DNA from: a virus
Lineage: Duplodnaviria > Heunggongvirae > Uroviricota > Caudoviricetes
Length of the DNA stretch: 43,220 bases
Virus record (IMG/VR): IMGVR_UViG_2563366806_000003
Strand: one strand, 5' to 3'
Below are positions 3,647 to 41,718 of the stretch, in pieces. Positions within the stretch are counted from its first letter, which is position 1. Each line of letters starts with the position of its first letter. The notes beneath the pieces are model-generated. The model made no database searches, was not told where the DNA came from, and saw only the letters and a list, made by a program, of their open reading frames with translations. The translations under genes were made by a program, and so were the position numbers.

Positions 3647-4783
3647 TCACTCCCCCTTCACGCCAATGCCAGCGGCGCGGTCAATACGTTCAATTTCTGC
3701 CAGAATAAGAGCGCCAGCTTTTACTAAGTCGCGGCGTGCTCCTGATTGCTTCCACCAGTCAGGAGACCACGGCCAATGTGCTGGAGTGGAGAAACCTTGG
3801 TTGTGCGCATGAATTGCGTAACAAGCCGCTGCATCTGCTAATTCGCTATTTTGATATGCGTTGTCATGTTCAGGAGTCCATCCTTCAACCGACTGTTGCC
3901 GCTGGCGTTCTGCTACCACATCAAGAATTGCGGGATTGAATGCGCCCCCCTCCAGTTCTGCTATGCGCTTCTCTGCGGCTTCCAACTCATCCAGCATCGC
4001 CAGCACGGTAGTGGGGTTTGCTGCGGAGTTCAGCGCGTTCAAGGCAGTGATATCTGCATCAAGCTGAGTTCCTTCTGCCAGTGAGATATCGAAAATGTCA
4101 TCAGGCGGCATAACACTAAGGCGCTCATGTTCGCCAACTGCTGCCGCTGCGATTTCACGCAGCGCCTGTTTGTCGATGTTGCTCATTGGACTGCCTCCTT
4201 TACGAAGCTGTTCGGCGATATCTTCGAGAACGCCATCAGAGAATGAGCGATCAAAATGGCTTTCCGGCGCATTAGTCATAAACTCAGTAGAGGTAAGGAT
4301 CATCCGGGCAATATCCGCGGCGTTCTTCGCAGTATCATCAATAAAACCAGCTTTCCAGGCTGCCAACATTCTGTTCGCCACAAAATAAGCGCCTTCCTTG
4401 CGTGCTTCAGTCTTCCCTTCAGCCAGAAAAGCATCGGTGGCTGGGGTTTTGATTTCGTTAAGCGCATCACTGAATCCACCACGCTCCATACCTAGCTCTG
4501 CTTCGTAATCGGCATCGAATGCAGCGTCTTTGCAGAACTTCTTCAGCTTTGCATTCTCCGCAGCCAGCGCTGAAAACTTCTCGTGTGCCAACTTAACAGC
4601 TGCATCAGCCTGCTTAATTGACTCAATCGCTTTCTGGTGGTCTTCGTACAGAGCCGAAATCTTGGCCTCCGCTTCAGCAAATTTACGCACCAGATATTCA
4701 GCGTTTGTTTCGTTCACTTTCAGATCTCGCGGTACACATTTCCCGCGAAGAAACCCTTCCATTTCGAAAACATTCATGCGCAT
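3647..4783 (-). CDS. Ead/Ea22-like early protein with coiled-coil region and DUF550-like (possible nucleotide pyrophosphohydrolase) C-terminal domain
   Basis: 378-aa ORF; C-terminal …EGWTPEHDNAYQNSELADAAACYAIHA… resembles the DUF550 family common in lambdoid early-left regions (recalled, not searched). Confidence 0.5.
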   Translation of the reverse strand: MRMNVFEMEGFLRGKCVPRDLKVNETNAEYLVRKFAEAEAKISALYEDHQKAIESIKQADAAVKLAHEKFSALAAENAKLKKFCKDAAFDADYEAELGMERGGFSDALNEIKTPATDAFLAEGKTEARKEGAYFVANRMLAAWKAGFIDDTAKNAADIARMILTSTEFMTNAPESHFDRSFSDGVLEDIAEQLRKGGSPMSNIDKQALREIAAAAVGEHERLSVMPPDDIFDISLAEGTQLDADITALNALNSAANPTTVLAMLDELEAAEKRIAELEGGAFNPAILDVVAERQRQQSVEGWTPEHDNAYQNSELADAAACYAIHAHNQGFSTPAHWPWSPDWWKQSGARRDLVKAGALILAEIERIDRAAGIGVKGE

Positions 4784-7799: not shown

Positions 7800-8453
7800 T
7801 CAAAAATCCATTATTACTTGTTTGACAAGACCAACTATTCTGCAGTTCTCACCGCATTCAATAGTTTTATAGTTAGGATTTAGTGGGACGAGATACCTGT
7901 TCGGCCAGTCCTCAACAAATTTTTTGAGTGTCGCTTCTTGCCCACCATTGATATGGGCAACAACGATTTTTCCGTTAATACACTCTGTATCAATAATATC
8001 TGGCTCTACGATAACGATAGAACCTTCTGGTATCGATGGTGAGCCGAGGGGATTGGTCATTGAATCACCACGGACCCGTAGTGCAAATGCCATTTCTGAT
8101 ACAAGGGCGGTAGTATAAACCCACTCTTCAGCATCTTCTTTCCTGACACCAGGCTCCGTCATTGTCCATGAACCCGCCTGAACCCACGAGATGAGGGGGA
8201 CTTTTTTAACTGCGAATATTTCAGGTTTTAGATTTATCTTTGGTTCAGGCGAGCCTTTTCCGCTAACAAGCCACAGAGGATCGCATTTAAGTGCGTTGGC
8301 TAGGGCTTGAAGGTTGGCTCCATTTGGTTGGTAGTCGTCCTTTTCCCATCCAGTAACCGTGACACGGTTCACACCAGTCAAATCAGCCAGTGCTTGTTGT
8401 GTCAGGTTCAGTTCTTTTCGCCTTTGGCGAATACGATCACTCATGTTCATCAT
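7800..8453 (-). CDS. CI-like prophage repressor (N-terminal XRE-type HTH, C-terminal S24 LexA-like peptidase domain)
   Basis: …LNLTQQALADLTGVNRVTVTGWE… HTH; C-terminal …LRVRGDSMTNP… and …KKF… S24 self-cleavage motifs; divergent from the Cro-like gene with operators between. Confidence 0.85.
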   Translation of the reverse strand: MMNMSDRIRQRRKELNLTQQALADLTGVNRVTVTGWEKDDYQPNGANLQALANALKCDPLWLVSGKGSPEPKINLKPEIFAVKKVPLISWVQAGSWTMTEPGVRKEDAEEWVYTTALVSEMAFALRVRGDSMTNPLGSPSIPEGSIVIVEPDIIDTECINGKIVVAHINGGQEATLKKFVEDWPNRYLVPLNPNYKTIECGENCRIVGLVKQVIMDF

Positions 8454-12677: not shown

Positions 12678-13673
12678 GTGACCGTGAGAGCACTACTGAC
12701 CCCTGAAATAGCCCCGCGTATGGGGATTGTATTGTTCAGACCAGGTTCAGAGCTGATGCCCCTGTTTATGCAGGGGCGTGTCCTGCTGGAGCCTGAGCCG
12801 GAACGTTATTCATCTTTCGCCAGTGGTGCCGTTCCGGCGGCATCACAACCGCTGGCGGATGATCCTGCCGTTAGGGCCGTGTTCCGCAATGAGGCAGTGA
12901 TCCGTCGTGCTGGTGGCGTGGAATGTCTTGAAAGCTGGTTACTTCGTGAAAAAGGCTGCCAGTGGCCTCATTCCGACTGGCACAGCGAGAACATGACCAC
13001 AATGCGACACGCGCCGGGCGCGATCCGTCTGTGCTGGCACTGCGATAACCAGCTGCGCGATCAGTTCACGGAACGGCTGGAATCAATGGCAACGGATAAC
13101 TGTGCCCGCTGGGTGTTGTCTGTAGTCCGTCTGGATCTCGGTTTTGATGATAACCATGCCGTGACAATGCCGGAACTGTGCTGGTGGCTGATTCGTAATG
13201 ACCTGGCGGATGCCTTACCGGAAAGTGCAGCCCGTAAGGCACTGAGATTACCGAAGCCTGTTGTGCCGTCTGTCACCCGGGAAAGTGACCTTGTGCCTTC
13301 GGTTCCTGCCACCAGCATCATCCAGGATAAGGCGAAAAAGGTGCTGGCGCTGAAAGTGGATCCGGAGTCGCCGGAGTCTTTTATGTTACGCCCAAAACGC
13401 CGCCGCTGGGTTAATGAAAAGTACACGCGCTGGGTTAAGACACAGCCGTGTGCATGTTGTGGAAAGCCTGCTGATGATCCCCACCACCTGATAGGCCACG
13501 GTCAGGGTGGAATGGGTACAAAAGCGCATGACCTCTTTGTGTTGCCTTTGTGCAGAAAGCATCACGACGAGCTGCATGCGGATACCGTGGCATTTGAAGA
13601 GAAGTATGGCTCTCAGCTGGAGCTGATATTTCGTTTTATCGATCGTGCGCTGGCAATTGGCGTATTGGCGTAA
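12678..13673 (+). CDS. DUF968-family lambdoid protein with C-terminal HNH-like Zn-binding motif
   Basis: …CACCGKPADDPHHL… and …LPLCRKHHDELH… in the C-terminus; typical nin-region position. Confidence 0.55.
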   Translation: MTVRALLTPEIAPRMGIVLFRPGSELMPLFMQGRVLLEPEPERYSSFASGAVPAASQPLADDPAVRAVFRNEAVIRRAGGVECLESWLLREKGCQWPHSDWHSENMTTMRHAPGAIRLCWHCDNQLRDQFTERLESMATDNCARWVLSVVRLDLGFDDNHAVTMPELCWWLIRNDLADALPESAARKALRLPKPVVPSVTRESDLVPSVPATSIIQDKAKKVLALKVDPESPESFMLRPKRRRWVNEKYTRWVKTQPCACCGKPADDPHHLIGHGQGGMGTKAHDLFVLPLCRKHHDELHADTVAFEEKYGSQLELIFRFIDRALAIGVLA

Positions 13674-13686
13674 GTGGAGAACGAGC

Positions 13687-14439
13687 ATGAACCTTGAAGC
13701 CTTACCAAAATATTACTCCCCAAAATCTCCAAAATTGAGCGATGACGCACCGGCGACAGGCTCAGGTGGTTTAACGATTACGGATGTGATGGCTGCGCAG
13801 GGGATGGTGCAGTCGAAAGCACCGCTTGGGTTTGCCTTATTCCTGGCAAAAGTTGGTGTTCAGGATCCTCAATTTGCGATTGAAGGTCTGCTCAATTACG
13901 CGATGGCACTGGATAACCCGACATTGAACAAATTGAGTGAAGAAACCCGGTTACAGATCATCCCTTACCTTGTGAATTTTGCCTTTGCTGATTATTCCAG
14001 GTCTGCGGCAAGTAAGGCTCGCTGTGAGCATTGTGCTGGTACTGGATTTCATAATGTATTGCGCGAAGTGGTGAAACACTCCAGAAGCGGGGAATCTGTT
14101 ATCAAGGAAGAGTGGGTGAAGGAACTATGTCAGCATTGTCATGGTAAGGGAGAAGTCAGCACAGCGTGCAGAGGGTGTAAGGGTAAAGGTATTGTCCTGG
14201 ATGAAAAAAGGACCCGGCTTCATGGCACGCCTGTTTATAAGATTTGTGGGCGTTGCAATGGAAACCGGTTTAGCCGTTTACCAACCACGCTGGCACGACG
14301 TCATGTCCAGAAGCTGGTACCAGACCTGACCGATTATCAGTGGTATAAGGGGTATGCGGACGTCATTGGTAAACTGGTAACAAAGTGCTGGCAGGAAGAA
14401 GCATACGCGGAAGCGCAATTGAGGAAGGTGACGAGATAA
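13687..14439 (+). CDS. Q: Late-gene antiterminator Q (lambdoid)
   Basis: Cys-rich Zn-finger region (CEHCAGTG…CQHCHGKG…CRGCKGKG); immediately upstream of a late promoter and short-transcript terminator. Confidence 0.8.
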   Translation: MNLEALPKYYSPKSPKLSDDAPATGSGGLTITDVMAAQGMVQSKAPLGFALFLAKVGVQDPQFAIEGLLNYAMALDNPTLNKLSEETRLQIIPYLVNFAFADYSRSAASKARCEHCAGTGFHNVLREVVKHSRSGESVIKEEWVKELCQHCHGKGEVSTACRGCKGKGIVLDEKRTRLHGTPVYKICGRCNGNRFSRLPTTLARRHVQKLVPDLTDYQWYKGYADVIGKLVTKCWQEEAYAEAQLRKVTR

Positions 14440-15045: not shown

Positions 15046-16098
15046 ATGAAAAATACTGTAAAAATAAACAGTGTTGATTTAATCAACGCTGATTGCCTGC
15101 ATTTTATTCAGTCCCTGCCTGATGATTCCATTGACCTGATTGTTACCGATCCGCCTTACTTCAAGGTGAAACCTAACGGTTGGGACAATCAGTGGAAAGG
15201 GGACGAAGATTACCTTAAGTGGCTGGACCACTGTCTGGCCCAGTTCTGGCGGGTGTTGAAACCTGCCGGAAGCCTTTACCTGTTCTGTGGGCATCGCCTG
15301 GCATCTGATATTGAGATCATGATGCGTGAACGTTTCAACGTGCTTAACCATATCATCTGGGCGAAGCCGTCCGGACGTTGGAATGGGTGTAATAAAGAAA
15401 GTCTGCGCGCATATTTTCCTGCCACAGAGCGCGTTCTGTTTGCTGAACATTACCAGGGGCCATATCGCGGCAAAAGTGACGGCTATGCGGCAAAAGAAAG
15501 GGAACTCAAACAGCACATAATGGCACCGCTGATATCGTATTTCAGGGATGCTCGTGCCGAACTGGGTATAACGGCAAAACAAATTGCCGAAGCCACAGGT
15601 AAGAAAAATATGGTTTCCCACTGGTTTGGTGCCAGTCAGTGGCAGTTGCCGAATGAGGCTGACTATCGGAAGTTACAGGCACTGTTTTCCCGTATAGCGG
15701 CAGAGAAGTTTCAGGAACAACAACTGGAACAACCACACCACCAGCTGGTGGCATCTTATGATTCACTGAATCGCAAATATTCTGAATTGCTGGATGAGTT
15801 TAAATCTCTCCGGCGCTATTTCTCCGTATCAGTTTCCGTGCCTTATACCGATGTCTGGACGCATAAGCCCGTTCAGTTCTATCCGGGTAAACATCCGTGC
15901 GAGAAACCGGCGGATATGCTCCGGCAAATAATCAATGCCAGTAGTCGACCTGGTGATCTGGTTGCTGATTTCTTTATGGGATCCGGTTCCACAATAAAAG
16001 CAGCAATGGCGCTGGGGCGTCGGGCGTTAGGTGTTGAACTTGAGTCAGAGCGGTTTAATCAGACGGTGAAAGAGGTAAGTGAACTGGTGGGGAAATAA
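15046..16098 (+). CDS. Orphan DNA N6-adenine/N4-cytosine methyltransferase (beta-class)
   Basis: DPPY motif (…IVTDPPYF…) near the N-terminus and FxGxG (…DFFMGSGST…) near the C-terminus; no adjacent restriction endonuclease. Confidence 0.8.
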   Translation: MKNTVKINSVDLINADCLHFIQSLPDDSIDLIVTDPPYFKVKPNGWDNQWKGDEDYLKWLDHCLAQFWRVLKPAGSLYLFCGHRLASDIEIMMRERFNVLNHIIWAKPSGRWNGCNKESLRAYFPATERVLFAEHYQGPYRGKSDGYAAKERELKQHIMAPLISYFRDARAELGITAKQIAEATGKKNMVSHWFGASQWQLPNEADYRKLQALFSRIAAEKFQEQQLEQPHHQLVASYDSLNRKYSELLDEFKSLRRYFSVSVSVPYTDVWTHKPVQFYPGKHPCEKPADMLRQIINASSRPGDLVADFFMGSGSTIKAAMALGRRALGVELESERFNQTVKEVSELVGK

Positions 16099-28925: not shown

Positions 28926-29074
28926 CGGCTGAATACCTCACTGATCGCTTCTTTGACTGCGCCAGTTACTGGCGCATTAATCCCTTCGAATTGCTGAATA
29001 TGCCGATCAGTGAAATTCCCTTGCTGGTCAGTCAGGCAAACAGGATAGAGCAGGAGAAACGCACACATGGCTGA
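28892..29074 (+). CDS. Putative frameshift extension of the tail assembly chaperone
   Basis: Overlapping ORF in another frame between chaperone and tape measure; ggttttttcc slippery-like run in the overlap. Confidence 0.35.
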   Translation: MACGRFFPPGLTAEYLTDRFFDCASYWRINPFELLNMPISEIPLLVSQANRIEQEKRTHG

Positions 29075-31022
29075 ATTTGAGCTTAAGGCGTTGATCACCG
29101 GTGTCGACAGGCTTTCTCCCGCGCTGTCGAAAATGCAAAAGAAAATCCGGGGATTTAAACGCCAGGCGGAAGAAGCGTCACAGGGTGGGCTGGCGCTTGG
29201 TGGCGGACTGGCAGCGGGTCTGACGCTTTCCCTGAAATCTTATGCCGATCAGGAAAACGCCGCCACCGGGCTGAAAGTCGCCATGATGGATGCGAACGGC
29301 GAGGTTGGAAAGAGCTTTCAGGACATCAATAAACTGGCTATTGGCCTGGGTAACCAGCTACCCGGTACAACGGCTGATTTCCAGAACATGATGCAGATGC
29401 TGGTGCGTCAGGGGATCCCGGCAGAAAACATTCTTGGTGGTGTGGGTAAAGCGACAGCTTATCTTGCGGTACAACTGAAAAAAACACCGGAAGCGGCTGC
29501 TGAGTTTGCTGCAAAGATGCAGGATGCTACCGGAACGGCGTCAGAAGACATGATGGGGCTGTTCGACACTATCCAGAAGGCGTTTTATCTGGGCGTTGAC
29601 GATACCAACATGTTGTCCTTCTTCACTAAAACCAGTTCTGTTCTGAAGATGGTGAACAAGGACGGTCTTCAGGCTGCACAGAGCCTTGCCCCCATCAGCG
29701 TCATGATGGATCAGATGGGGATGAACGGGGAGTCGGCAGGTAATGCCCTGCGAAAAGTTATCCAGTCCGGATTAAGCGTTAAGAAAATCAGGGACGTCAA
29801 TAAAGTCATGGCCCGCCAGAGACTCGGGGTACAGCTCGATTTTACTGACGGCAAAGGAAGTTTTGGCGGTCTTGATAACATGTTCAGGCAACTGGCAAAG
29901 CTGCGAAAACTGACCGACGTTAAGCGAACAGGTGTACTTAAGGCAATATTTGGTGATGATGCCGAAACCCTTCAGGTGGTCAATGCACTAATCGATAAAG
30001 GAAAGGATGGCTACGATCAGATCCAGCAGAAGATGAATAAACAGGCCAGCCTGAATAAACGTGTTCAGGCACAGCTTGGTACGCTGTCCAACCTGTGGGA
30101 GGCAATGACGGGGACCGCAACTAACGGCCTTGCGGCTATTGGCGGCGCATTTTCTGGTGACGCCAAAAATATCACGCAATGGCTGGGGGAGTTGGGGGAA
30201 AAATTCACGAAGTTTGCGGATGAAAATCCCCGGGTTATTCGCGGCGTCGTCGGGCTTGCTGCCGGTCTTGCGATTCTGAAACTGGGATTGATGGGCGTGG
30301 GCAGTGCCATCAGTATCGTCAGCAGGATCATGTCGATGACGCCGATTGGCATGATTGCGACGGCGATTGCCTTGGCTGCGGGATTAATTATCACTAACTG
30401 GGATGTTGTTGGACCTTATTTCAAGAAGCTCTGGGAAACCATTGGTCCTTATTTTGAGGCTGGCTGGGAACTTCTGAAGAAGGTTTTTGCCTGGTCGCCG
30501 CTGGGGATGGTAATCAATAACTGGGGACCGGTTGTTAAGTGGTTTCAGGATATGTGGGACAAGCTGAAGCCAATTATTGAGTGGTTTACCGACAGTTCCG
30601 GTGACACGGTCGATGCCATTAACTCGGCGCAGTGGGGCGCGGGTGCTTATGATGCTTATGGGACGGGAATACCGCCACGGGGATACACTCCTTATCCGGC
30701 GCAGTCAAACAACGCCTCCGGTGACACGGTCGATGCCATTAACTCTGCGCAGTGGGGCGCGGGTGCTTATGATGCTTATGGGACGGGAATACCGGCGCGG
30801 GGATACACACCTTATCCGGCGGTAGATCCGGCTCAGTCAAACAACGCCTCCGATGCTACAGGCCCGAATCCCTTCATGATTAACAAAGCTTCTGCGCCAA
30901 AAGTTGACGGTGAGATCAAGGTCTCTTTTGTGAATTCGCCTCCGGGTATGCGGGTTATGGAAACGCGATCCAGCGGTTTTGATATAAATCACGATGTTGG
31001 CTATACGCATATTGGCAGATGA
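29067..31022 (+). CDS. Tail tape measure protein
   Basis: 651 aa, helical/Gly-Ala-rich with hydrophobic segments; contains a tandem duplication. Confidence 0.85.
   Translation: MAEFELKALITGVDRLSPALSKMQKKIRGFKRQAEEASQGGLALGGGLAAGLTLSLKSYADQENAATGLKVAMMDANGEVGKSFQDINKLAIGLGNQLPGTTADFQNMMQMLVRQGIPAENILGGVGKATAYLAVQLKKTPEAAAEFAAKMQDATGTASEDMMGLFDTIQKAFYLGVDDTNMLSFFTKTSSVLKMVNKDGLQAAQSLAPISVMMDQMGMNGESAGNALRKVIQSGLSVKKIRDVNKVMARQRLGVQLDFTDGKGSFGGLDNMFRQLAKLRKLTDVKRTGVLKAIFGDDAETLQVVNALIDKGKDGYDQIQQKMNKQASLNKRVQAQLGTLSNLWEAMTGTATNGLAAIGGAFSGDAKNITQWLGELGEKFTKFADENPRVIRGVVGLAAGLAILKLGLMGVGSAISIVSRIMSMTPIGMIATAIALAAGLIITNWDVVGPYFKKLWETIGPYFEAGWELLKKVFAWSPLGMVINNWGPVVKWFQDMWDKLKPIIEWFTDSSGDTVDAINSAQWGAGAYDAYGTGIPPRGYTPYPAQSNNASGDTVDAINSAQWGAGAYDAYGTGIPARGYTPYPAVDPAQSNNASDATGPNPFMINKASAPKVDGEIKVSFVNSPPGMRVMETRSSGFDINHDVGYTHIGR
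30596..30835 (+). repeat. Tandem duplication (about 120 bp x2) inside the tape measure gene
   Basis: ggtgacacggtcgatgccattaactc…ccttatccggcg occurs twice consecutively, encoding SGDTVDAINSAQWGAGAYDAYGTGIP(P/A)RGYTPYPA twice. Confidence 0.85.
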
Positions 31023-31074
31023 CGGAACCAGATATAATTTGTCTTTAAGTTTGTTATCAACTGAAGGGAAATCT

Positions 31075-31452
31075 ATGGGTCTGTTACATGCCATTATAGG
31101 TAATGCCGGTGAAATTAATGCATCAGATGCACAACAGGAATTAGGGGCTGTTTTAGGTGAGGGAGAAAATGTCGAACTTGCCTATAAACTCATTCGTGAC
31201 CAAATTATTCTGACTAACAGAAGGTTAATTTTTATTGATAAGCAGGGTGTCACAGGGAAAAAAGTAGAGTATCGTTCGATTCCTTATAAATCTGTGACAA
31301 ACTTTTCTATTGAAACCGCCGGGCATCTTGATCTTGATGCTGAAATGAAGATATGGATTTCTGGTATTGCAGAACCGATAAAAAAACAGTTCAGTAAAGG
31401 AGCAAACATTTATAAATTGCAGGCTCATCTGGCTCAAAAAATAGCAGGGTAA
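31075..31452 (+). CDS. Bacterial PH-domain-like protein (moron in the tail operon)
   Basis: AT-rich 125-aa ORF (…ILTNRRLIFIDKQGVTGKKVEYRSIPYKSVTNFSIETAG…) with its own sigma70-like promoter and terminator. Confidence 0.5.
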   Translation: MGLLHAIIGNAGEINASDAQQELGAVLGEGENVELAYKLIRDQIILTNRRLIFIDKQGVTGKKVEYRSIPYKSVTNFSIETAGHLDLDAEMKIWISGIAEPIKKQFSKGANIYKLQAHLAQKIAG

Positions 31453-31478
31453 ACCTTACATTAATTTATGTCTTTCAT

Positions 31479-31501
31479 GCCCACTTCGGTGGGCTTTTTT
31501 A
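31479..31501 (+). terminator. Intrinsic terminator after the PH-domain-like moron
   Basis: gcccac-ttcg-gtgggc hairpin plus T6. Confidence 0.7.
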
Positions 31502-31515
31502 TATCCGGAGTTTAT

Positions 31516-32844
31516 ATGACGTGGAAAGACAGGCTTCAGGACGCGTCATTTCGCGGTGTGCCGTTTAAGGTTGAAGAAGAAAGTGCGGGAACAGGTCGCC
31601 GTGTGGAAACACACGAATATCCGAACCGCGACAAACCCTATACCGAAGATCTGGGAAAAGTCACTTTCCGCCCGTCCATCACGGCTTATGTGGTGGGCGA
31701 TGACTGCTTTGACCAGCGCGATCGCCTGATTGACGCGCTGAATAAACCCGGTCCCGGCACGCTTGTCCACCCGACTTACGGTGAGCTGAAAGTCTGTGTT
31801 GACGGAGAGGTTCGGGTCAGCACATCGAAAAGTGAAGGGCGTATTGTCCGCTTTGACCTGAAGTTTGTCGAAGCGGGAGAACTCTCTTACCCCACATCAG
31901 GTGCGGCGACGGCGCAGACGCTGATGTCATCCTGTTCTGCACTGGATGACTGCATCAGTGACAGCTTCAGCGGTTTCAGTATCGATGGTGTGGCGGATTT
32001 CGTGCAGAACGACGTTATCGGTAATGCCAGCATAATGCTGGGGTATGTTTCTGATGCGATGAAAGTGGTGGATTCTGCCGTATCGGATGCCGCCAGGCTG
32101 TTGCAGGGGGATATCTCGGTACTTCTGCCGCCGCCATCGTCAGGCAAAAATTTCGTTGAGCAGGTGCAGAAAATGTGGCGTACCGGGAAACGCCTTTATG
32201 GTAACGCCAGCGACCTGGTCACCATGATCAAAACGCTTTCCGGTGTCAGCCTCGGCAGCGATCTGCAACCGCGCGGCGTCTGGAAAACGGACAGTAAAAC
32301 CACCGCCACGGCGACGCAGCAGCGTAACGTGGTTGCCAGCACCCTTCGTGCGACCGCAATCAGCGAAGCGGCGTATGCCGTCACCCGATTGCCTGCGCCA
32401 ACAACTTCCGCGGTGATGCAGAATGCCGCAGTGGGGCAGTCAACAACTTCCGCGCAGAGCAACAACTGGCCTTCCGTCACGCATCCGGCACTGAACAATG
32501 CACCGGCGGTGAAAAACACGGTTGACCTGCCAACGTGGGAAGAACTGACTGACATTCGCGACACACTGAATACGGCAATTGATAAGGAGTTGTCCCGTAC
32601 AACCAGTGATGCGCTGTTTCTGGCGCTGCGCCGGGTGAAAGCAGATCTGAATGCGGATATCAACACGCGCCTTGAACAGTCTGCTCGGATCATTCAGCGC
32701 ACGCCGGATGAGGTCTTACCCGCGCTGGTGCTGGCGGCGACCTGGTTTGATAACGCGGCGCGTGACGCGGACATTATCCGGCGTAATGCCATTACGCATC
32801 CCGGCTTTGTGCCGGTGATCCCTCTGAAGGTGCCAGTGCAATGA
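31516..32844 (+). CDS. DNA circularization protein (Mu N-like)
   Basis: MTWKDRLQDASFRGVPFKVEEES… is the typical N-terminus of this family; follows the tape measure. Confidence 0.75.
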   Translation: MTWKDRLQDASFRGVPFKVEEESAGTGRRVETHEYPNRDKPYTEDLGKVTFRPSITAYVVGDDCFDQRDRLIDALNKPGPGTLVHPTYGELKVCVDGEVRVSTSKSEGRIVRFDLKFVEAGELSYPTSGAATAQTLMSSCSALDDCISDSFSGFSIDGVADFVQNDVIGNASIMLGYVSDAMKVVDSAVSDAARLLQGDISVLLPPPSSGKNFVEQVQKMWRTGKRLYGNASDLVTMIKTLSGVSLGSDLQPRGVWKTDSKTTATATQQRNVVASTLRATAISEAAYAVTRLPAPTTSAVMQNAAVGQSTTSAQSNNWPSVTHPALNNAPAVKNTVDLPTWEELTDIRDTLNTAIDKELSRTTSDALFLALRRVKADLNADINTRLEQSARIIQRTPDEVLPALVLAATWFDNAARDADIIRRNAITHPGFVPVIPLKVPVQ

Positions 32845-37266: not shown

Positions 37267-37868
37267 TGAATAAAGCCGTATTAAATAACGAACTCATTGC
37301 CATAAAAGCGGGAGACATTACCATTTATAATTATGATGGTGAAACGCGGGAATATATTTCCACATCAACTGAATATCTTGCGGTTGGCGTCGGTATACCG
37401 GCATGTTCTTGTTTAGATGCACCAGTTACACATAAAGCTGGTTATGCAATCTGCCGTTCTGCAGATTTTAACTCATGGGAATATGTGCCAGACCATCGCG
37501 GTGAAATCATCTATAGCACCGAAACAGGAGAATCAAAAGAAATCACAGCTCCGGGTGATTACCCTGAAAATACAACCACTATCGCCCCGTTAACGCCATT
37601 CGATAAATGGGATGGTGAGAAATGGGTGACCGATACTGAGGCACAGCATCGCGCCGCAGTAGACGCGGCAGAAGCACAGCGTCAGTCACTGATTGATACT
37701 GCAATGGCTTCCATTAGTCTGATTCAACTGAAATTACAGGCCGGGCGGAAACTGACGCAGGCAGAAACAACCCGGCTTAACGCTGTGCTGGATTACATTG
37801 ACGCGGTGACGGCAACAGATACCAGCACCGCGCCGGATGTCATCTGGCCTGAACTGCCGGAGGAGTAG
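37266..37868 (+). CDS. Tail fibre assembly protein (expressed orientation)
   Basis: ATGA-coupled to the tail fibre gene; C-terminal conserved Tfa motif also present in the inverted paralog. Confidence 0.75.
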   Translation: MNKAVLNNELIAIKAGDITIYNYDGETREYISTSTEYLAVGVGIPACSCLDAPVTHKAGYAICRSADFNSWEYVPDHRGEIIYSTETGESKEITAPGDYPENTTTIAPLTPFDKWDGEKWVTDTEAQHRAAVDAAEAQRQSLIDTAMASISLIQLKLQAGRKLTQAETTRLNAVLDYIDAVTATDTSTAPDVIWPELPEE

Positions 37869-38280
37869 GCCATTCAATATCTGGTGCACTGGAAGTATCG
37901 ACCAGCTCCAGTGCGTCCAGATAATCCAGCCACAAATTATATTGCGCCAGTTCCTCACCTTTCAGACGACCAATAGCCGCTTTACCAACCCATTGTCTAC
38001 TGTTCATATAATCGTTGGCCTGATTAATCAATTGCTGCTTTTTAGTTTCGGCTGATGCAATTTGTTCTTCACGTGTTGGCGGTGGAACATCTGCCCATGC
38101 TGGCATTCCATCGTCTCCGGTAATTCTGTACTTACCGTCAGGCGGCGTATCATGGAAATATTCCCTGAAAATAGCTTCGTCTATATCCACGCCTTTACCT
38201 TCGGGCCATTGGCCTTTTGCAGCGTAAACAGACTGGAGGGCATAAGGGTACGCCAGATTATCAACATACAAATATTTCAT
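37840..38280 (-). CDS. Alternative tail fibre assembly protein (silent orientation)
   Basis: Convergent with the first Tfa; similar C-terminal end (…DTSSAPDIEWPTPP… vs …DTSTAPDVIWPELP…). Confidence 0.7.
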   Translation of the reverse strand: MKYLYVDNLAYPYALQSVYAAKGQWPEGKGVDIDEAIFREYFHDTPPDGKYRITGDDGMPAWADVPPPTREEQIASAETKKQQLINQANDYMNSRQWVGKAAIGRLKGEELAQYNLWLDYLDALELVDTSSAPDIEWPTPPAVQAR

Positions 38281-38282
38281 AA

Positions 38283-38615
38283 TTAACGCCCTTTCGCGTA
38301 GAAGGCTCCACCTTCAAAGCCATAGTTACAATGAGCAACGAAACCTGTTTTCGTCCAGTTAGTTGCGCCCCACATATTCCCACCACCAAAACCGCCGTCA
38401 TATACAATCACTACGTCTGGCTCCTGCGTAAAAGGAATGGTGAAAGTCACATTTGTAGATACCGCCGCGGCGTTATTCGGGAAATTAATTCTTCCCCACT
38501 GTTCAATTGAACCATCAGGCAATTTTTGCCAGCCAGATCCTGATGAATAAGCTGACATATCAGGTATCTGATTTTCCCCTGTTCCCACATTCCGTTTTGC
38601 CGCTTCTCCCAAACC
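38283..38615 (-). CDS. Alternative tail fibre variable C-terminal segment (promoterless until inversion)
   Basis: Begins at the right recombination site with the same N-x-G-L-G-E junction codons as the tail fibre gene. Confidence 0.7.
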   Translation of the reverse strand, partial: GLGEAAKRNVGTGENQIPDMSAYSSGSGWQKLPDGSIEQWGRINFPNNAAAVSTNVTFTIPFTQEPDVVIVYDGGFGGGNMWGATNWTKTGFVAHCNYGFEGGAFYAKGR

Positions 38616-38628
38616 AACGTTTATGAAA
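38602..38628. repeat. Right recombination site of the invertible segment (inverted copy)
   Basis: Reverse complement tttcataaacgttggtttgggagaagc matches the left site. Confidence 0.7.
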
Positions 38629-38683
38629 ATGCAGAAATAGCGCGCAAATGGCATCGTTCCTGTTTTTGTCAGGAGGAGCTATC

Positions 38684-39240
38684 ATGCTTATTGGCTATGT
38701 TCGCGTATCAACAAATGACCAGAACACCGATCTACAACGTAATGCGTTGAACTGTGCAGGATGTGAGCTGATTTTTGAAGACAAGATAAGCGGTACAAAG
38801 TCCGACAGACCAGGACTGAAAAAGCTGCTCAGGACATTATCGGCAGGTGACACGCTGGTGGTCTGGAAACTGGACCGACTGGGGCGCAGTATGCGGCATC
38901 TTGTCGTGCTGGTGGAAGAGTTGCGCGAACGTGGCGTTAATTTTCGCAGCCTGACGGATGCTATTGATACCAGCACACCAATGGGGCGCTTTTTCTTTCA
39001 TGTGATGGGTGCCCTGGCTGAAATGGAGCGAGAGTTTATTGTCGAACGTACTAGGGCGGCTTTGCCGCAGCACGACAAGAAGGGAGGAACGGTGGGCGAA
39101 AGCCAAAGCTGACAGTAGAACAATGGGGGCAGGCTGGCAGGTTGATTGAATCGGGAATATATCAGCAGCAAGTCGCACTGATTTATGATCTGGGTATTTC
39201 AACGGTGTATAAAAAATTCCCTGTAGCAAGTAAACCATAG
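38684..39240 (+). pseudogene. Gin/Pin/Hin-family serine DNA invertase, disrupted by a single-base frameshift
   Basis: MLIGYVRVSTNDQNTDLQ… catalytic domain runs to 39112; the HTH domain (GRKPKLTVEQWGQAGRLIE…VALIYDLGISTVYKKFP) continues in another frame to 39240; join point at agggcggctttgcc (about 39052-39062) consistent with loss of one G. Confidence 0.75.
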
Positions 39241-39266
39241 CCTTACGCCACATTGATGATCGCGGA

Positions 39267-39962
39267 TTATGCACTATTTTTAGGTCTTGTAACCCGAGGT
39301 GGGAGTTGTTTGGTTATATGTTCAAGTGATTTTTTGCCCAAGATAGTTCTTTGGACAAAACTTTCTATAGCTTCTAGCATTTGTTCGAACTCACTTTTAT
39401 TCGGGCTCCAACTGCGATGTGCGGCGGCGTTTCCTGCATCAATTACTGAAGATATAACGCATGCCTCAGTGTCGCCTATGACTCCATCTTGTTTTAATTT
39501 TTCAACTTTTTCACCAAGCGGCAAACCGGGGTGAATTTGTAACAGTTCAGCAGTTCGATCAAAAATCGTCCGTAAACCGATGGACGAAAGAATGAAATGG
39601 TCAGAAGTATATGAAGAATACATTTCATTAAATATTTGAAAGAGCTGACGATCAACTGATTCAAGCTTGGATAACCATATCGGAGCTTGAAATGTTTCAG
39701 CGGCAGGATAGGTAGTGATCATATCTATAGGCGTTTCTACAAATTCACCATCACGATATTCGTGGGTAGTATGCTCACTGAAGTGTTCGTTGTGGTGATA
39801 GAAGACAGTATCACAGCCATTGCATTGGAGTAGGTGATGGTAATGGTACCCATAAACTGGATATTGGGAATCCTCCCAGCTAGTGGTTAGCTTCCCATGC
39901 ACAGTGCAGTTACGTAACCCACCGCATGTAGGGCAAAGAGCCTTGAGTATTTCCTTTTTCAT
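39267..39962 (-). CDS. Hypothetical Zn-ribbon protein (231 aa), candidate defence/exclusion cargo; function not recognised
   Basis: AT-rich ORF antisense to the tail operon; N-terminal CPTCGG…C and CNGC cysteine pairs; the rest matches nothing I recognise. Confidence 0.55.
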   Translation of the reverse strand: MKKEILKALCPTCGGLRNCTVHGKLTTSWEDSQYPVYGYHYHHLLQCNGCDTVFYHHNEHFSEHTTHEYRDGEFVETPIDMITTYPAAETFQAPIWLSKLESVDRQLFQIFNEMYSSYTSDHFILSSIGLRTIFDRTAELLQIHPGLPLGEKVEKLKQDGVIGDTEACVISSVIDAGNAAAHRSWSPNKSEFEQMLEAIESFVQRTILGKKSLEHITKQLPPRVTRPKNSA

Positions 39963-40620: not shown

Positions 40621-41718
40621 TCAAGAGGTCTTATTTCTGCTCCTTTGGAGCTCTTCAAAACGATTATGTAAAGATTTCGGATACAGTTCGGTATATACCT
40701 GCCATAGCACGTTTAATGAACGATGCCCTGTAACTTGGGCGACTTCCTCAATACTAAAACCAGCCTCAAATAAGCGACTTGCCCCTTCTCTACGCAAATC
40801 ATGGTATCGCAGATCCTTAATACCTAATTTGCTTCTTACTCTCTGAAATCCCGCAGTAACAGAAGTGCTGTTATATGGAAAAATGAATTCCGATTTTTGG
40901 GGCTGTCGTTGGACGATATCCCAGGCTTCCCCAAGCAAGGCTACTTTCATGTGGTTGCCTTCCTTTTTGCGTGGATCTTTCCTGTCTCTTACGAGTATAG
41001 ATTTTTGTTCCTGGTCGAGATCTTCCCATCGTAACCGGCATACTTCTCCGATTCGCATACAGGACCATACAGAAAATTTGAGGATATCAACGAACGGAAT
41101 TTTTGAGCATTTATGAGTAGATCGTTGTTGAAGGCCTGCAATGAGCATGTCCAGTTCATCAGATGCTGGTCTACGATTACGACGGTTTGATTTACCAATC
41201 AAACCAAGTTTAAGTAGATATGGGCGAGCGCTTTTCGCCGGGTTTGATGTGTAATTAATTCCGTATACAGGTTTGGCCGCATCCAGAACACTGCCAAGAT
41301 AACTAACATCGTGGCTGACTGTTGCAGGACCTGCACCAGCGTTGTTTCTTAGCCTGCAATGTTCAATTACGTCATTTTCTGTCAGTTCAGATAGTTTGAT
41401 CGCGGAGATGTCACTATCCATAAGCAGTTCCAGCACATATCTTTTAGTACGGCCTGCTTTACCTCCGGCATTTGGGTCATTTAAATATTTGTGTAGTAAG
41501 TCACGGACTGTAAGTCCGTCAACTGCATTTGATGATGGAATACCATATAGATCTAATTCCATCACTTTCTGTGTGCCCCATGTTTTGGCATGAGCATGTT
41601 TAGGGAATGTTTTGCTTTCCCTGTAAGTGATAACACCTTTTTCTTTGATAATCACATTACAGCGATAGCGTGGTGTGCCATCGGATTTTAGTCGTTTCTC
41701 TATGTTATAGTACGCCAT
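40621..41718 (-). CDS. int: Tyrosine integrase (dusA-specific type)
   Basis: 365 aa with C-terminal catalytic region (…HDLRREGASRLFEAG…VTGHRSLNVLWQVY…); adjacent and divergent to dusA. Confidence 0.9.
   Translation of the reverse strand: MAYYNIEKRLKSDGTPRYRCNVIIKEKGVITYRESKTFPKHAHAKTWGTQKVMELDLYGIPSSNAVDGLTVRDLLHKYLNDPNAGGKAGRTKRYVLELLMDSDISAIKLSELTENDVIEHCRLRNNAGAGPATVSHDVSYLGSVLDAAKPVYGINYTSNPAKSARPYLLKLGLIGKSNRRNRRPASDELDMLIAGLQQRSTHKCSKIPFVDILKFSVWSCMRIGEVCRLRWEDLDQEQKSILVRDRKDPRKKEGNHMKVALLGEAWDIVQRQPQKSEFIFPYNSTSVTAGFQRVRSKLGIKDLRYHDLRREGASRLFEAGFSIEEVAQVTGHRSLNVLWQVYTELYPKSLHNRFEELQRSRNKTS

What the first reader, a model, noticed from the sequence alone, without database searches (positions are those of the whole stretch)
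31011..31501. Self-contained moron in the tail operon encoding a PH-domain-like protein
Between the tape measure and the DNA-circularization gene there is an AT-rich unit with its own candidate promoter (TTGGCA at 31012-31017, TATAAT at 31033-31038, 15-bp spacer), RBS, a 125-aa ORF with a bacterial PH-domain-like signature, and a strong intrinsic terminator. Independent expression signals inside a late structural operon suggest expression from the prophage during lysogeny and a function for the host or for exclusion of other phages. The biochemical function is unknown.
Basis: partly seen in the sequence, partly recalled or inferred. Interest (0 to 1): 0.5.

Follow-up and report, generated by a model that had tools for sequence, protein, structure and literature searches.

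The report
Prophage add-on gene encoding PH-domain protein
A small AT-rich accessory gene ("moron") for a bacterial PH-domain ring protein sits at a swap-in/swap-out cargo site between two tail genes of an SfV-like E. coli prophage; it is a real but fairly ordinary example of a known kind, and its biochemical job is still unknown.

Summary
ORF 31075-31452 encodes a full-length bPH_1/PHb1 protein (Pfam PF08000, E 3e-48; about 60% identical to the solved pentameric rings 3DCX and 3HSA). It lies in a 36% GC island between the tape-measure gene and the Mu N-like gene of a lambdoid, Q-dependent, SfV/SfII-like prophage.

It is not a tail component. SfV, SfII and SfI lack it, and only 28 of about 1,094 E. 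coli genomes with this tail junction carry it. IS1 disrupts it in four of those.

The junction is a cargo hotspot. About half of the sampled prophages are empty there. Others carry a lipoprotein, two signal-peptide or membrane-anchored proteins, or a reverse-strand membrane-anchored OB-fold protein of the same Pfam family as the lactococcal exclusion protein Sie2009.

"Self-contained" is only partly right. The terminator and the -35 hexamer are already present at empty sites; the cargo supplies the -10, RBS and gene.

The gene is under strong purifying selection (dN/dS 0.016 against the Edwardsiella phage copy). In other phages, bPH_1 genes usually sit in the lysogeny module (44 of 67 loci).

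The most likely reading is a lysogen-expressed accessory protein, probably for phage exclusion or envelope function. Expression and function are inferred, not shown. It is a new member of a known kind.

The parts
29067..31022 (+). Tape-measure protein gene (651 aa), the left flank of the cargo site. Its last ~13 codons (30984-31022) are a variant allele and contain the -35 hexamer.
   Evidence: Pfam PhageMin_Tail, E 1.1e-26. It is 97% identical to the SfII, SfV and SfI tape-measure genes. The 3' end is compared with empty sites.
31012..31017 (+). Candidate -35 hexamer TTGGCA. It lies in tape-measure coding sequence and is also present at empty sites.
   Evidence: Empty sites read TTTGGCAGGTAA. 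The block is conserved 13 of 16 in the non-coding Edwardsiella relic.
31033..31040 (+). Candidate -10 region, supplied by the cargo, with two overlapping registers: TATAAT (31033-31038, 15-bp spacer) and TAATTT (31035-31040, 17-bp spacer).
   Evidence: Matrix scores are 13.0 and 11.5, ranks 8 and 14 of 86,376. Edwardsiella copies keep TTGGCA-N17-TAACCT but read TATAAC in the other register. The empty site has no comparable site (best score 6.8).
31063..31069 (+). Ribosome-binding site GAAGGGA, 5 nt before the ATG.
   Evidence: GAAGGG is invariant in the Edwardsiella copies.
31075..31452 (+). bPH_1 / PHb1 gene: 125 aa, with no hydrophobic segment.
   Evidence: Pfam PF08000, E 3.1e-48. phrog_7115, E 6e-54. 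PDB 3dcx and 3hsa, E about 1e-39. Maximum Kyte-Doolittle 19-residue value is 0.58. dN/dS is 0.016 against phage EPP-1.
31479..31500 (+). Intrinsic terminator (6-bp GC stem, UUCG loop, T6). It is a fixture of the tape-measure-N junction, not specific to this cargo.
   Evidence: It is present in empty sites and, with compensatory stem changes, behind every forward cargo. It is 22 of 22 identical to the Edwardsiella copy. SfII's record annotates it as a terminator.
31516..32844 (+). Mu N-like DNA-circularisation / tail protein gene, the right flank. Its RBS GGAG is at 31507-31510.
   Evidence: Pfam DNA_circ_N, E 3e-34. The 1,329-nt annotation in relatives supports this start.
13645..14439 (+). 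Q-type late antiterminator of the same prophage. It is relevant because Q-modified polymerase is expected to read through the junction terminator during lytic growth.
   Evidence: Pfam Antiterm PF03589, E 1.9e-53. Read-through is inferred from established lambda Q biology.

Best explanation
This is a moron: a horizontally acquired accessory cassette sitting at a recurrent cargo hotspot between the tape-measure gene and the N-like gene of an SfV/SfII-type lambdoid prophage with a Mu-like tail.

It encodes a soluble 125-aa PHb1 (Pfam bPH_1) protein. By about 60% identity to solved homologues, this protein should form a dome-shaped pentameric ring. Its base should carry the conserved acidic partner-binding patches formed between neighbouring subunits.

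The cargo brings a -10 element, an RBS and the gene. It uses a TTGGCA -35 that lies in the last codons of the tape-measure gene, and a terminator that already belongs to the junction. Two routes of expression are inferred:
- in the lysogen, from its own sigma-70 promoter, with the terminator insulating the downstream baseplate genes;
- late in lytic growth, by Q-antiterminated read-through.

The favoured function is inferred, not shown. The ring would dock through its acidic base onto a basic segment of an inner-membrane-associated complex, or of an incoming phage's ejected protein. That would protect the lysogen against superinfecting phages or alter envelope behaviour, as cargo at such slots typically does.

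I hold the parts with different confidence: about 0.9 that it is a moron encoding a PHb1 protein, about 0.6 that it is expressed in lysogens, and about 0.35 that its role is phage exclusion or defence.
For: Shown:
- Full-length bPH_1 match and close solved homologues.
- All eight residues of the conserved PHb1 site are present at the same positions (against Xu et al. 2010, PMC2817789). These are D42, D55, Q57, K63, E80, D86, D88 and E90.
- No hydrophobic segment.
- GC of 36% against 52-56% in the flanks.
- Absent from SfV, SfII and SfI, and from about 97% of E. coli genomes with this junction: 28 of about 1,094 carry it, four of those with IS1 inside it.
- The junction holds at least five alternative contents. 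Every forward cargo has a promoter-like site; the empty junction does not.
- dN/dS is 0.016 against the Edwardsiella phage copy, and PH is the best-conserved protein of the region.
- Promoter blocks are conserved 18 of 22, against 36-48% identity at neutral-like sites, binomial P about 9e-4.
- A Q antiterminator is present.

Supporting the inference of lysogenic expression and an exclusion-type role:
- bPH_1 genes in unrelated temperate phages lie in the lysogeny module, on the same strand as the repressor and integrase. Examples are ul36, a Vibrio phage, and 44 of 67 IMG/VR loci.
- Their neighbours include Ltp-type exclusion lipoproteins, Abi_2, SIR2 and Schlafen-type proteins.
- The same two protein families alternate at cargo slots in both E. 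coli SfV-like and lactococcal P335 phages: PH domain proteins and Sie2009-type membrane-anchored OB-fold proteins.
- The first described moron is a precedent. HK97 gp15 sits in the tail operon next to the tape-measure gene, derives from a chromosomal gene family and is a superinfection exclusion protein (PMC3594210).
Against: - There are no expression data.
- The TATAAT register has a poor 15-bp spacer and becomes TATAAC in Edwardsiella. The 17-bp register has weaker -10 hexamers (TAATTT, TAACCT).
- The promoter footprint rests on only two effective lineages.
- The protein has no membrane anchor, unlike proven Sie proteins.
- It matches no PADLOC model.
- The one PH-domain protein at a lactococcal sie locus that is discussed in the literature, bIL285 orf2, is not among those reported to give resistance. 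Only sie309 and sie312 were reported to do so (PMC6127208).
- Chromosomal bPH_1 genes are highly conserved, stand alone among housekeeping neighbours, and give no hint of a phage-related role.
- Co-location with defence-like genes may only reflect shared cargo slots.
Confidence: 0.6

Rival explanations
1. The gene is a host-fitness factor rather than an anti-phage factor. The prophage-expressed PHb1 ring would modulate an envelope or stress-response process of the lysogen, as proposed for cellular family members. It would pay for prophage carriage in that way.
For: - B. subtilis YvbH is found in the membrane-associated fraction, and its paralogue YozO belongs to the sigma-W envelope-stress regulon (Xu et al. 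2010).
- The phage protein keeps the complete conserved site of the cellular family, so it probably has the same biochemical activity.
- Prophage bIL285, which carries a PH-domain orf2, changes the host's sensitivity to lysozyme and nisin. The authors suggested orf2 as a candidate cause (PMC6127208).
Against: - No direct evidence exists.
- Among the best 120 homologues, the only cluster attributed to E. coli is this cassette itself. There is therefore no indication of a native E. coli pathway for it to plug into.
- The cargo slots where it occurs are dominated by exclusion- or defence-type genes.
Confidence: 0.2
2. The gene acts only in the lytic cycle. The promoter-like site would be non-functional, and the gene would be transcribed only as part of the Q-antiterminated late operon. 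It would then serve the phage itself, for example in counter-defence, lysis timing or an assembly-efficiency role.
For: - The gene has the same orientation as the late operon and lies downstream of a Q antiterminator, so late read-through is expected regardless.
- The promoter is suboptimal in either register.
Against: - In other phages the gene sits with the repressor and integrase, not with late genes.
- The promoter blocks are conserved above background where they are non-coding.
- One alternative cargo at this site is on the opposite strand and cannot be expressed from the late transcript. The slot therefore accommodates independently expressed genes.
- Late expression would be too late for most counter-defence roles (inference).
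Confidence: 0.12
3. The cassette is neutral or decaying passenger DNA with no current function.
For: It is rare (28 genomes), and IS1 interrupts it in four of them.
Against: - dN/dS is 0.016 with saturated synonymous divergence between the E. coli and Edwardsiella copies.
- The ORF is intact and all family site residues are conserved.
Confidence: 0.03
4. The protein is a structural or assembly component of the contractile tail.
For: Only its position between the tape-measure gene and N.
Against: - It is absent from the plaque-forming phages SfV, SfII and SfI, and from most prophages with 97% identical flanks.
- Unrelated genes, or nothing, replace it at the same site.
- Its homologues are ubiquitous chromosomal proteins.
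Confidence: 0.01

Closest known systems
PHb1 proteins of Pfam bPH_1 (PF08000, formerly DUF1696): Shewanella structures 3DCX and 3HSA, and B. subtilis YvbH
   Same: - Same length and single-domain architecture.
- About 60% identity to the solved proteins.
- All eight conserved acidic-site residues and most perimeter residues are retained.
- No membrane segment.
   Different: - It is encoded in an AT-rich prophage cassette rather than as a chromosomal stand-alone gene.
- The His67/His76 inter-subunit pair of the Shewanella protein is Arg67/Asn76 here.
- The function of the whole family is unknown.
Phage PHb1 genes noted by Xu et al. 2010: Lactococcus phage ul36 ORF124 and Microbacterium phage Min1 ORF77
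   Same: Same Pfam family in temperate phages (ul36 ORF124: bPH_1, E 1.6e-39). No function has been assigned. Presumed to be accessory.
   Different: - ul36 ORF124 lies in the lysogeny module on the repressor/integrase strand, and Xu et al. 2010 place Min1 ORF77 there too; here that gene was only seen close to the end of the linear Min1 record. This one is a separate unit inside the late tail operon.
- Only 33-41% identical.
HK97 gp15 moron (Juhala et al. 2000; Cumby et al. 2012; reviewed in PMC3594210)
   Same: - An accessory gene inserted in the tail operon next to the tape-measure gene, with composition differing from the flanks.
- Derived from a chromosomal bacterial gene family.
- The moron model of own promoter and terminator applies.
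   Different: - gp15 is a small inner-membrane protein of the YebO family with a demonstrated exclusion phenotype.
- The PH protein is soluble, belongs to an unrelated fold, and is untested.
Lactococcal prophage Sie proteins (Sie2009 of Tuc2009; 'sie285' = bIL285 orf2)
   Same: - They occupy a cargo slot where PH-domain and membrane-anchored OB-fold (PF12869) proteins alternate, as at the E. coli tape-measure-N junction.
- bIL285 orf2 carries a bacterial PH domain (bPH_3, E 7e-23) plus SHOCT.
   Different: - Sie2009 is a different fold with an N-terminal membrane anchor.
- bIL285 orf2 is bPH_3, not bPH_1, and has not been reported to confer resistance.
- The window protein has no anchor.

Membership tests
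Pfam bPH_1 / PHb1 (PF08000) | Full-length profile match above the curated gathering score | tested here: met
   163.2 bits against a 27.7-bit cut-off; residues 3-122 on profile positions 2-121 of 122.
Pfam bPH_1 / PHb1 (PF08000) | Conserved inter-subunit acidic site (D42, D55, Q57, K63, E80, D86, D88, E90 in PHb1 numbering) | tested here: met
   All eight residues are present at the same positions in the translated ORF, matched to the list in Xu et al. 2010. The alignment to 3dcx has no gaps.
Pfam bPH_1 / PHb1 (PF08000) | Soluble single-domain protein of about 125 aa | tested here: met
   125 aa; the maximum 19-residue Kyte-Doolittle hydropathy is 0.58, against 1.7-2.6 for the anchored cargo proteins.
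Pfam bPH_1 / PHb1 (PF08000) | Pentameric dome-shaped ring | not testable with these tools
   Inferred from about 60% identity to 3dcx and 3hsa. No multimer prediction or experiment was possible.
Moron (Hendrix/Juhala definition) | Extra gene between two genes that are adjacent in otherwise collinear relatives | tested here: met
   The tape-measure gene and N are separated by about 60 bp in SfII and in E. coli QEC11-421, against 493 bp here. The cassette is in 28 of about 1,094 genomes.
Moron (Hendrix/Juhala definition) | Base composition distinct from the flanks | tested here: met
   36.4% GC against 52% and 56% in the flanks.
Moron (Hendrix/Juhala definition) | Own promoter | tested here: inconclusive
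   A high-scoring sigma-70-like site (rank 8 of 86,376) is conserved above neutral background, and nothing comparable exists at empty sites. However, the -35 is backbone sequence, the spacer or -10 is suboptimal, and there are no transcript data.
Moron (Hendrix/Juhala definition) | Own terminator | tested here: inconclusive
   A strong terminator follows the gene. The same hairpin is present at empty sites and is kept, with compensatory changes, behind other cargos. It belongs to the site, not to this cargo.
Moron (Hendrix/Juhala definition) | Expression from the repressed prophage | not testable with these tools
   Requires RNA or protein data from a lysogen.
Superinfection exclusion proteins (Sie2009 / HK97 gp15 / SieA / Ltp types) | Membrane anchor or lipobox | tested here: not met
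   No hydrophobic segment. By contrast, the other four cargos at this site have one.
Superinfection exclusion proteins (Sie2009 / HK97 gp15 / SieA / Ltp types) | Sequence homology to a proven Sie family | tested here: not met
   The Pfam hits are only bPH_1 and bPH_3. Sie2009 is PF12869.
Superinfection exclusion proteins (Sie2009 / HK97 gp15 / SieA / Ltp types) | Blocks DNA entry of superinfecting phage | not testable with these tools
   Requires phage challenge experiments.
Catalogued anti-phage defence systems (PADLOC-DB 2.0.0) | Match to any defence-protein model | tested here: not met
   No families at E up to 1. The phage PH homologues from ul36 and the Vibrio phage also give no match.

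The most novel reading that the evidence does not exclude
PHb1 rings may be a previously unrecognised, cytoplasmic class of prophage-encoded superinfection-exclusion or anti-phage proteins. They would be functionally interchangeable with Sie2009-type membrane-anchored OB-fold proteins at prophage cargo slots.

The pentamer would use its acidic base to cap the cytoplasmic face of the DNA-entry machinery, or to bind basic segments of ejected tape-measure or pilot proteins. In some phages it might act as a partner of adjacent SIR2 or Schlafen effectors.

If true, this would give the first function to a family conserved at 57-65% identity across bacterial phyla and left unexplained since its structures were solved in 2010.
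Probability: 0.2. Interest if true: 0.7.

Novelty: new member of a known kind. Interest (0 to 1): 0.35.

Why it matters
On its own this is one more moron, and phage-borne PHb1 genes were already noted in 2010. Three points give it some value.

- It supplies a clean natural experiment. Near-isogenic prophages exist with an empty junction, with the PH gene, with an IS1-disrupted PH gene, or with one of four other cargos. Strains such as E. coli G3/10 and G5 carry the intact cassette, so the function of a widespread domain of unknown function can be tested directly.
- The tape-measure-N junction of SfV-like prophages is present in about a fifth of complete E. coli genomes. It turns out to be a cargo hotspot whose contents include a Sie2009-like protein. 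That is relevant to phage-resistance prediction and to phage therapy.
- The anatomy refines the moron model. The terminator and the -35 belong to the landing site and are reused by whatever cargo arrives.

Tried and rejected
- **Rfam scan of 30800-31700** at permissive E-values: only sub-threshold chance matches. There is no RNA gene in the cassette.
- **PADLOC** on the PH protein, its phage homologues and the other hotspot cargos: no matches, apart from the SIR2 and Schlafen neighbours.
- **Conserved chromosomal partner.** I examined 69 of 80 genome loci from many phyla. Neighbours are conserved only within genera and are housekeeping genes (AlaX-like, DUF1871, 6PGD, enolase/SecG, MetRS, SOD). 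They give no clue to function.
- **The longer 152-aa ORF from 30994:** rejected, because homologues start at the MGL methionine.
- **A sigma-54 reading of TGGCA:** rejected by eye, because no GC element follows at the required spacing.
- **TTGATA (30979) as an alternative -35:** the -10 is poor and the site is not conserved.
- **Origin of the empty site by deletion** between GGCAGG-like microhomologies. The resemblance between the 3' ends is weak in AT-rich sequence. I did not test it statistically, and it is unresolved.
- **The left boundary of the cargo** cannot be placed more exactly than 30984-31022. The variant tape-measure 3' end is shared with prophages carrying other cargos.
- **Mahony et al. 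2008,** the primary test of lactococcal sie genes, could not be retrieved. The status of bIL285 orf2 therefore rests on a secondary source.
- **Gene calls** in the IMG/VR and genome surveys were crude (greedy longest ORFs). The integrase, repressor and ImmA profiles were iterated from a few seeds. The figure of 44 of 67 is approximate, and serine recombinases were not counted.
Full report
**What is there**

The window is a complete lambdoid prophage with a Mu-like contractile tail, of the SfV/SfII/SfI type. Its tail region is 97-98% identical to those Shigella and E. coli phages. It carries:
- a cI-like repressor (7800-8450, minus strand);
- a Q antiterminator (13645-14436);
- holin and lysis genes;
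- sheath, tube, chaperone, tape-measure, N-, P- and baseplate-type genes;
- an integrase (40621-41715, minus strand).

The finding lies between the tape-measure gene (29067-31022) and the N-like DNA-circularisation gene. The N gene most likely starts at ATG 31516, with RBS GGAG at 31507-31510. This matches the 1,329-nt annotation in relatives.

- TTGGCA at 31012-31017, a 15-bp spacer, and TATAAT at 31033-31038;
- RBS GAAGGGA at 31063-31069 and ATG at 31075;
- a 125-codon ORF ending at 31452;
- a GC-rich hairpin with a UUCG loop at 31479-31494, followed by six T.

The ORF is a full-length Pfam bPH_1 domain (E 3e-48). It falls in a PHROG of unknown function.

It is about 60% identical to the two solved PHb1 structures from Shewanella, 3DCX and 3HSA (E about 1e-39).

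The cassette is 36% GC, in a 51% GC phage with 52-56% GC flanks.

The terminator folds far better than shuffled sequence (z = -4.2).

The standard promoter scan misses the promoter because of its 15-bp spacer. With a simple sigma-70 matrix that penalises the spacer, it ranks 8th of 86,376 positions in the window. That matrix uses approximate frequencies from my own knowledge.

**It is an accessory gene, not a tail protein**

SfII, SfV, SfI and many E. coli prophages have the same flanks, with only about 60 bp between the tape-measure gene and N.

About 1,094 of 5,426 complete E. coli genomes have this junction. Only 28 contain the PH cassette, and four of those have IS1 inside the gene.

The isolated Edwardsiella phage EPP-1 and Edwardsiella prophages carry an 88-90% identical protein at the same junction. 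The next relative (72% identity) is an ordinary chromosomal gene of Edaphovirga.

The protein is not a conserved structural component.

**The junction is a cargo hotspot**

An evenly spaced sample of the 1,102 matching E. coli records gave these contents:
- About half are empty.
- The rest carry one of several unrelated AT-rich genes:
  - A 170-aa protein with a signal-peptide-like N-terminus, as in phage SKA5. It is found in 85 genomes.
  - A 176-aa protein with an N-terminal hydrophobic segment, in ETEC H10407.
  - A 225-aa lipoprotein with an LLGGC lipobox.
  - A 128-148-aa protein encoded on the reverse strand, including in strain 042. It has an N-terminal membrane anchor and a PF12869 OB-fold.

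The last architecture and Pfam family are those of Sie2009 of lactococcal phage Tuc2009 (BLASTP E 1e-6). Sie2009 is described in the literature as a proven superinfection exclusion protein (PMC7693887).

The PH protein is the only cargo without a hydrophobic segment.

**"Self-contained" is only partly right**

- *The terminator belongs to the site.* The hairpin and T-run just before the N RBS are already present at empty sites. SfII's depositors annotated them as a terminator in a phage with no cargo. A hairpin plus T-run is kept behind each forward cargo, with compensatory stem changes: CCCAC/GTGGG, CCCGC/GCGGG and GCCACC/GGTGGC. The hairpin is 22 of 22 identical between the E. coli and Edwardsiella cassettes.
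- *The -35 belongs to the backbone.* The TTGGCA hexamer lies in the last codons of the tape-measure gene, and empty sites have it too.
- *The cargo adds the rest.* It contributes the -10 region, the RBS and the gene. The empty junction has no comparable promoter-like site (best matrix score 6.8, against 13.0). The other forward cargos each have one (scores 9.1-12.2).

**Is the promoter real?**

The only evidence available is comparative.

Between the window and phage EPP-1, third codon positions are 48% identical, the 3' untranslated stretch 46%, and the segment 31039-31059 36%. By contrast, the -35 block is 13 of 16 identical and the -10 is 5 of 6. The combined 18 of 22 has a binomial P of about 9e-4 against the neutral-like background.

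In Edwardsiella this region is non-coding. It is a decayed relic of an E. coli-type tape-measure 3' end, translating as ...DVNHDAEHTSIGR* after the phage's own tape-measure stop codon. This shows that the cassette moved between phages together with about 100 bp of upstream flank.

The TATAAT register becomes TATAAC in Edwardsiella and so loses the critical last T. An overlapping register with the optimal 17-bp spacer keeps the two key bases in both lineages: TAATTT at 31035-31040 here, and TAACCT there.

I therefore regard a promoter as likely, and the 17-bp register as the better candidate. Only two effective lineages support this, and nothing shows activity.

**Selection**

The gene is clearly functional. 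dN/dS is 0.016 against EPP-1, with synonymous sites saturated.

At 88.8% identity it is better conserved than the neighbouring tail proteins, which are 73-83% identical.

All eight residues of the acidic inter-subunit site defined on the Shewanella pentamer are present at the same positions: D42, D55, Q57, K63, E80, D86, D88 and E90 (against PMC2817789). The phage protein therefore probably has the same, still unknown, molecular activity as the cellular family.

That family is found in at least 595 species, at 57-65% identity across phyla.

**Clues to the role**

Xu et al. [quoted passage not shown] I extended this:
- In ul36 the order is repressor, ImmA-like protease, ORF355, PH, integrase, all on one strand.
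- In a Vibrio phage the order is repressor, PH, a SIR2 protein, integrase. The SIR2 protein matches PADLOC SIR2 models.
- I surveyed 67 IMG/VR loci that are not SfV-like. In 44 of them an integrase, an HTH repressor or an ImmA-type protease lies within three genes of PH, almost always on the same strand.
- Pfam families among 111 dereplicated neighbours are led by HTH_3, Phage_integrase, Peptidase_M78 and Peptidase_S24. They also include Abi_2 and the Ltp exclusion lipoprotein.
- In four loci the adjacent gene is a Schlafen/AlbA_2 protein with PADLOC Argonaute-associated hits.
- In lactococcal P335 phages the slot next to the integrase holds a Sie2009-type OB-fold protein (Tuc2009), a bPH_1 protein (ul36), or a bPH_3-SHOCT protein (bIL285 orf2, called sie285).

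So the same two families alternate at cargo slots in two unrelated phage groups.

There are cautions:
- Only sie309 and sie312 are reported to give resistance, not the PH-domain protein (PMC6127208).
- The PH protein matches no PADLOC model.
- Chromosomal bPH_1 genes have no conserved partner.

**Most likely mechanism**

- *Shown:* this is a horizontally mobile accessory cassette at a cargo hotspot. It encodes an intact PHb1 protein under strong selection.
- *Inferred from homology:* a soluble pentameric ring with acidic partner-binding patches.
- *Inferred from sequence and comparison:* transcription in the lysogen from TTGGCA-N17-TAATTT (or the N15-TATAAT register), ending at the junction terminator, which shields the baseplate genes. 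Q-dependent read-through would also occur during lytic growth.
- *Inferred from context only:* the ring binds a basic segment of a membrane-associated host complex, or of an incoming phage's ejected protein. This would benefit the lysogen through phage exclusion (my favoured reading, about 0.35) or through altered envelope physiology (about 0.2).

The closest conceptual precedent is the HK97 gp15 moron. It sits next to the tape-measure gene, derives from the chromosomal YebO family, and excludes superinfecting phages (PMC3594210).

**Novelty and verdict**

Morons, phage-borne PHb1 genes and tail-operon exclusion genes are all known. This is a new member of a known kind.

The modestly new points are:
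- the tape-measure-N hotspot and its set of cargos, including a Sie2009-like protein in E. coli;
- the shared, site-owned terminator and -35;
- the quantitative lysogeny-module association of bPH_1.

Interest is moderate to low (0.35). It would rise considerably if PHb1 rings proved to be a new soluble class of exclusion or defence proteins.

Noticed in passing
window 30597-30821: There is a 120-bp tandem duplication (1.9 copies, 96% identical) inside the tape-measure gene. It gives a 651-aa protein, against 611 aa in SfII. Several close E. coli relatives lack the extra copy: their matches to the 2,501-base query span 2,381 bases. Because tape-measure length sets tail length, this prophage may make a slightly longer tail.
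   Followed up: partly
L015 634-1080 (minus strand) and L016 633-1019 (E. coli 042); same junction as window 31023-31515: Other SfV-like E. coli prophages carry a reverse-strand gene at this junction for a membrane-anchored OB-fold protein (PF12869). This is the same architecture and Pfam family as the lactococcal superinfection exclusion protein Sie2009. It may be an untested exclusion gene in E. coli, including the enteroaggregative strain 042.
   Followed up: partly
L003 1925-1950, L001 2925-2950, L014, L017 and L002, just upstream of the N gene (equivalent to window 31479-31500): An intrinsic terminator is kept inside the late tail operon even at empty junctions, and it shows compensatory stem changes among variants. 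Why a cargo-less phage keeps it is unexplained. It may be a landing pad or the scar of an earlier cargo.
   Followed up: partly
L004 3350-3445 and L008-L011 about 3850-3950: In Edwardsiella phages a non-coding, decayed copy of an E. coli-type tape-measure 3' end sits between the phage's own tape-measure stop codon and the PH gene. The block TTGATnnAAATCACGATG is 16 of 18 identical to window 30979-30996 although it is non-coding there.
   Followed up: partly
window 31075-31452 against L004 3501-3875: The PH cassette stays at 38-40% GC in both the E. coli and Edwardsiella phages, although synonymous sites are saturated and the flanks are 48-59% GC. There is no sign of compositional amelioration.
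   Followed up: no
L006 3450-5737; L033 4398-6378 (also L036, L038, L039): In two unrelated prophage contexts the PH gene lies directly beside a defence-like effector. One is a 612-aa SIR2 protein. The other is a 510-aa Schlafen/AlbA_2 plus HATPase_c_4 protein with PADLOC Argonaute-associated hits. This could be chance co-location in a cargo slot, or a two-gene system.
   Followed up: partly
E. coli genomes NZ_CP075062.1, NZ_CP117717.1, NZ_CM142896.1 and NZ_LR890651.1 (hits H31-H34): An IS1 element is inserted in the PH gene, at about window position 31164. These are natural knock-outs that could serve as controls.
   Followed up: partly
window 37840-39962: A second cargo-like block lies between the tail-fibre genes and the integrase. 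It includes a minus-strand DUF4145 protein at 39267-39959. From my own knowledge, the serotype-converting relatives carry O-antigen modification genes at this position. I did not analyse it.
   Followed up: no
window 15046-16095: An N6/N4 DNA methyltransferase gene lies between the Q antiterminator and the holin. It may be another accessory or anti-restriction gene.
   Followed up: no
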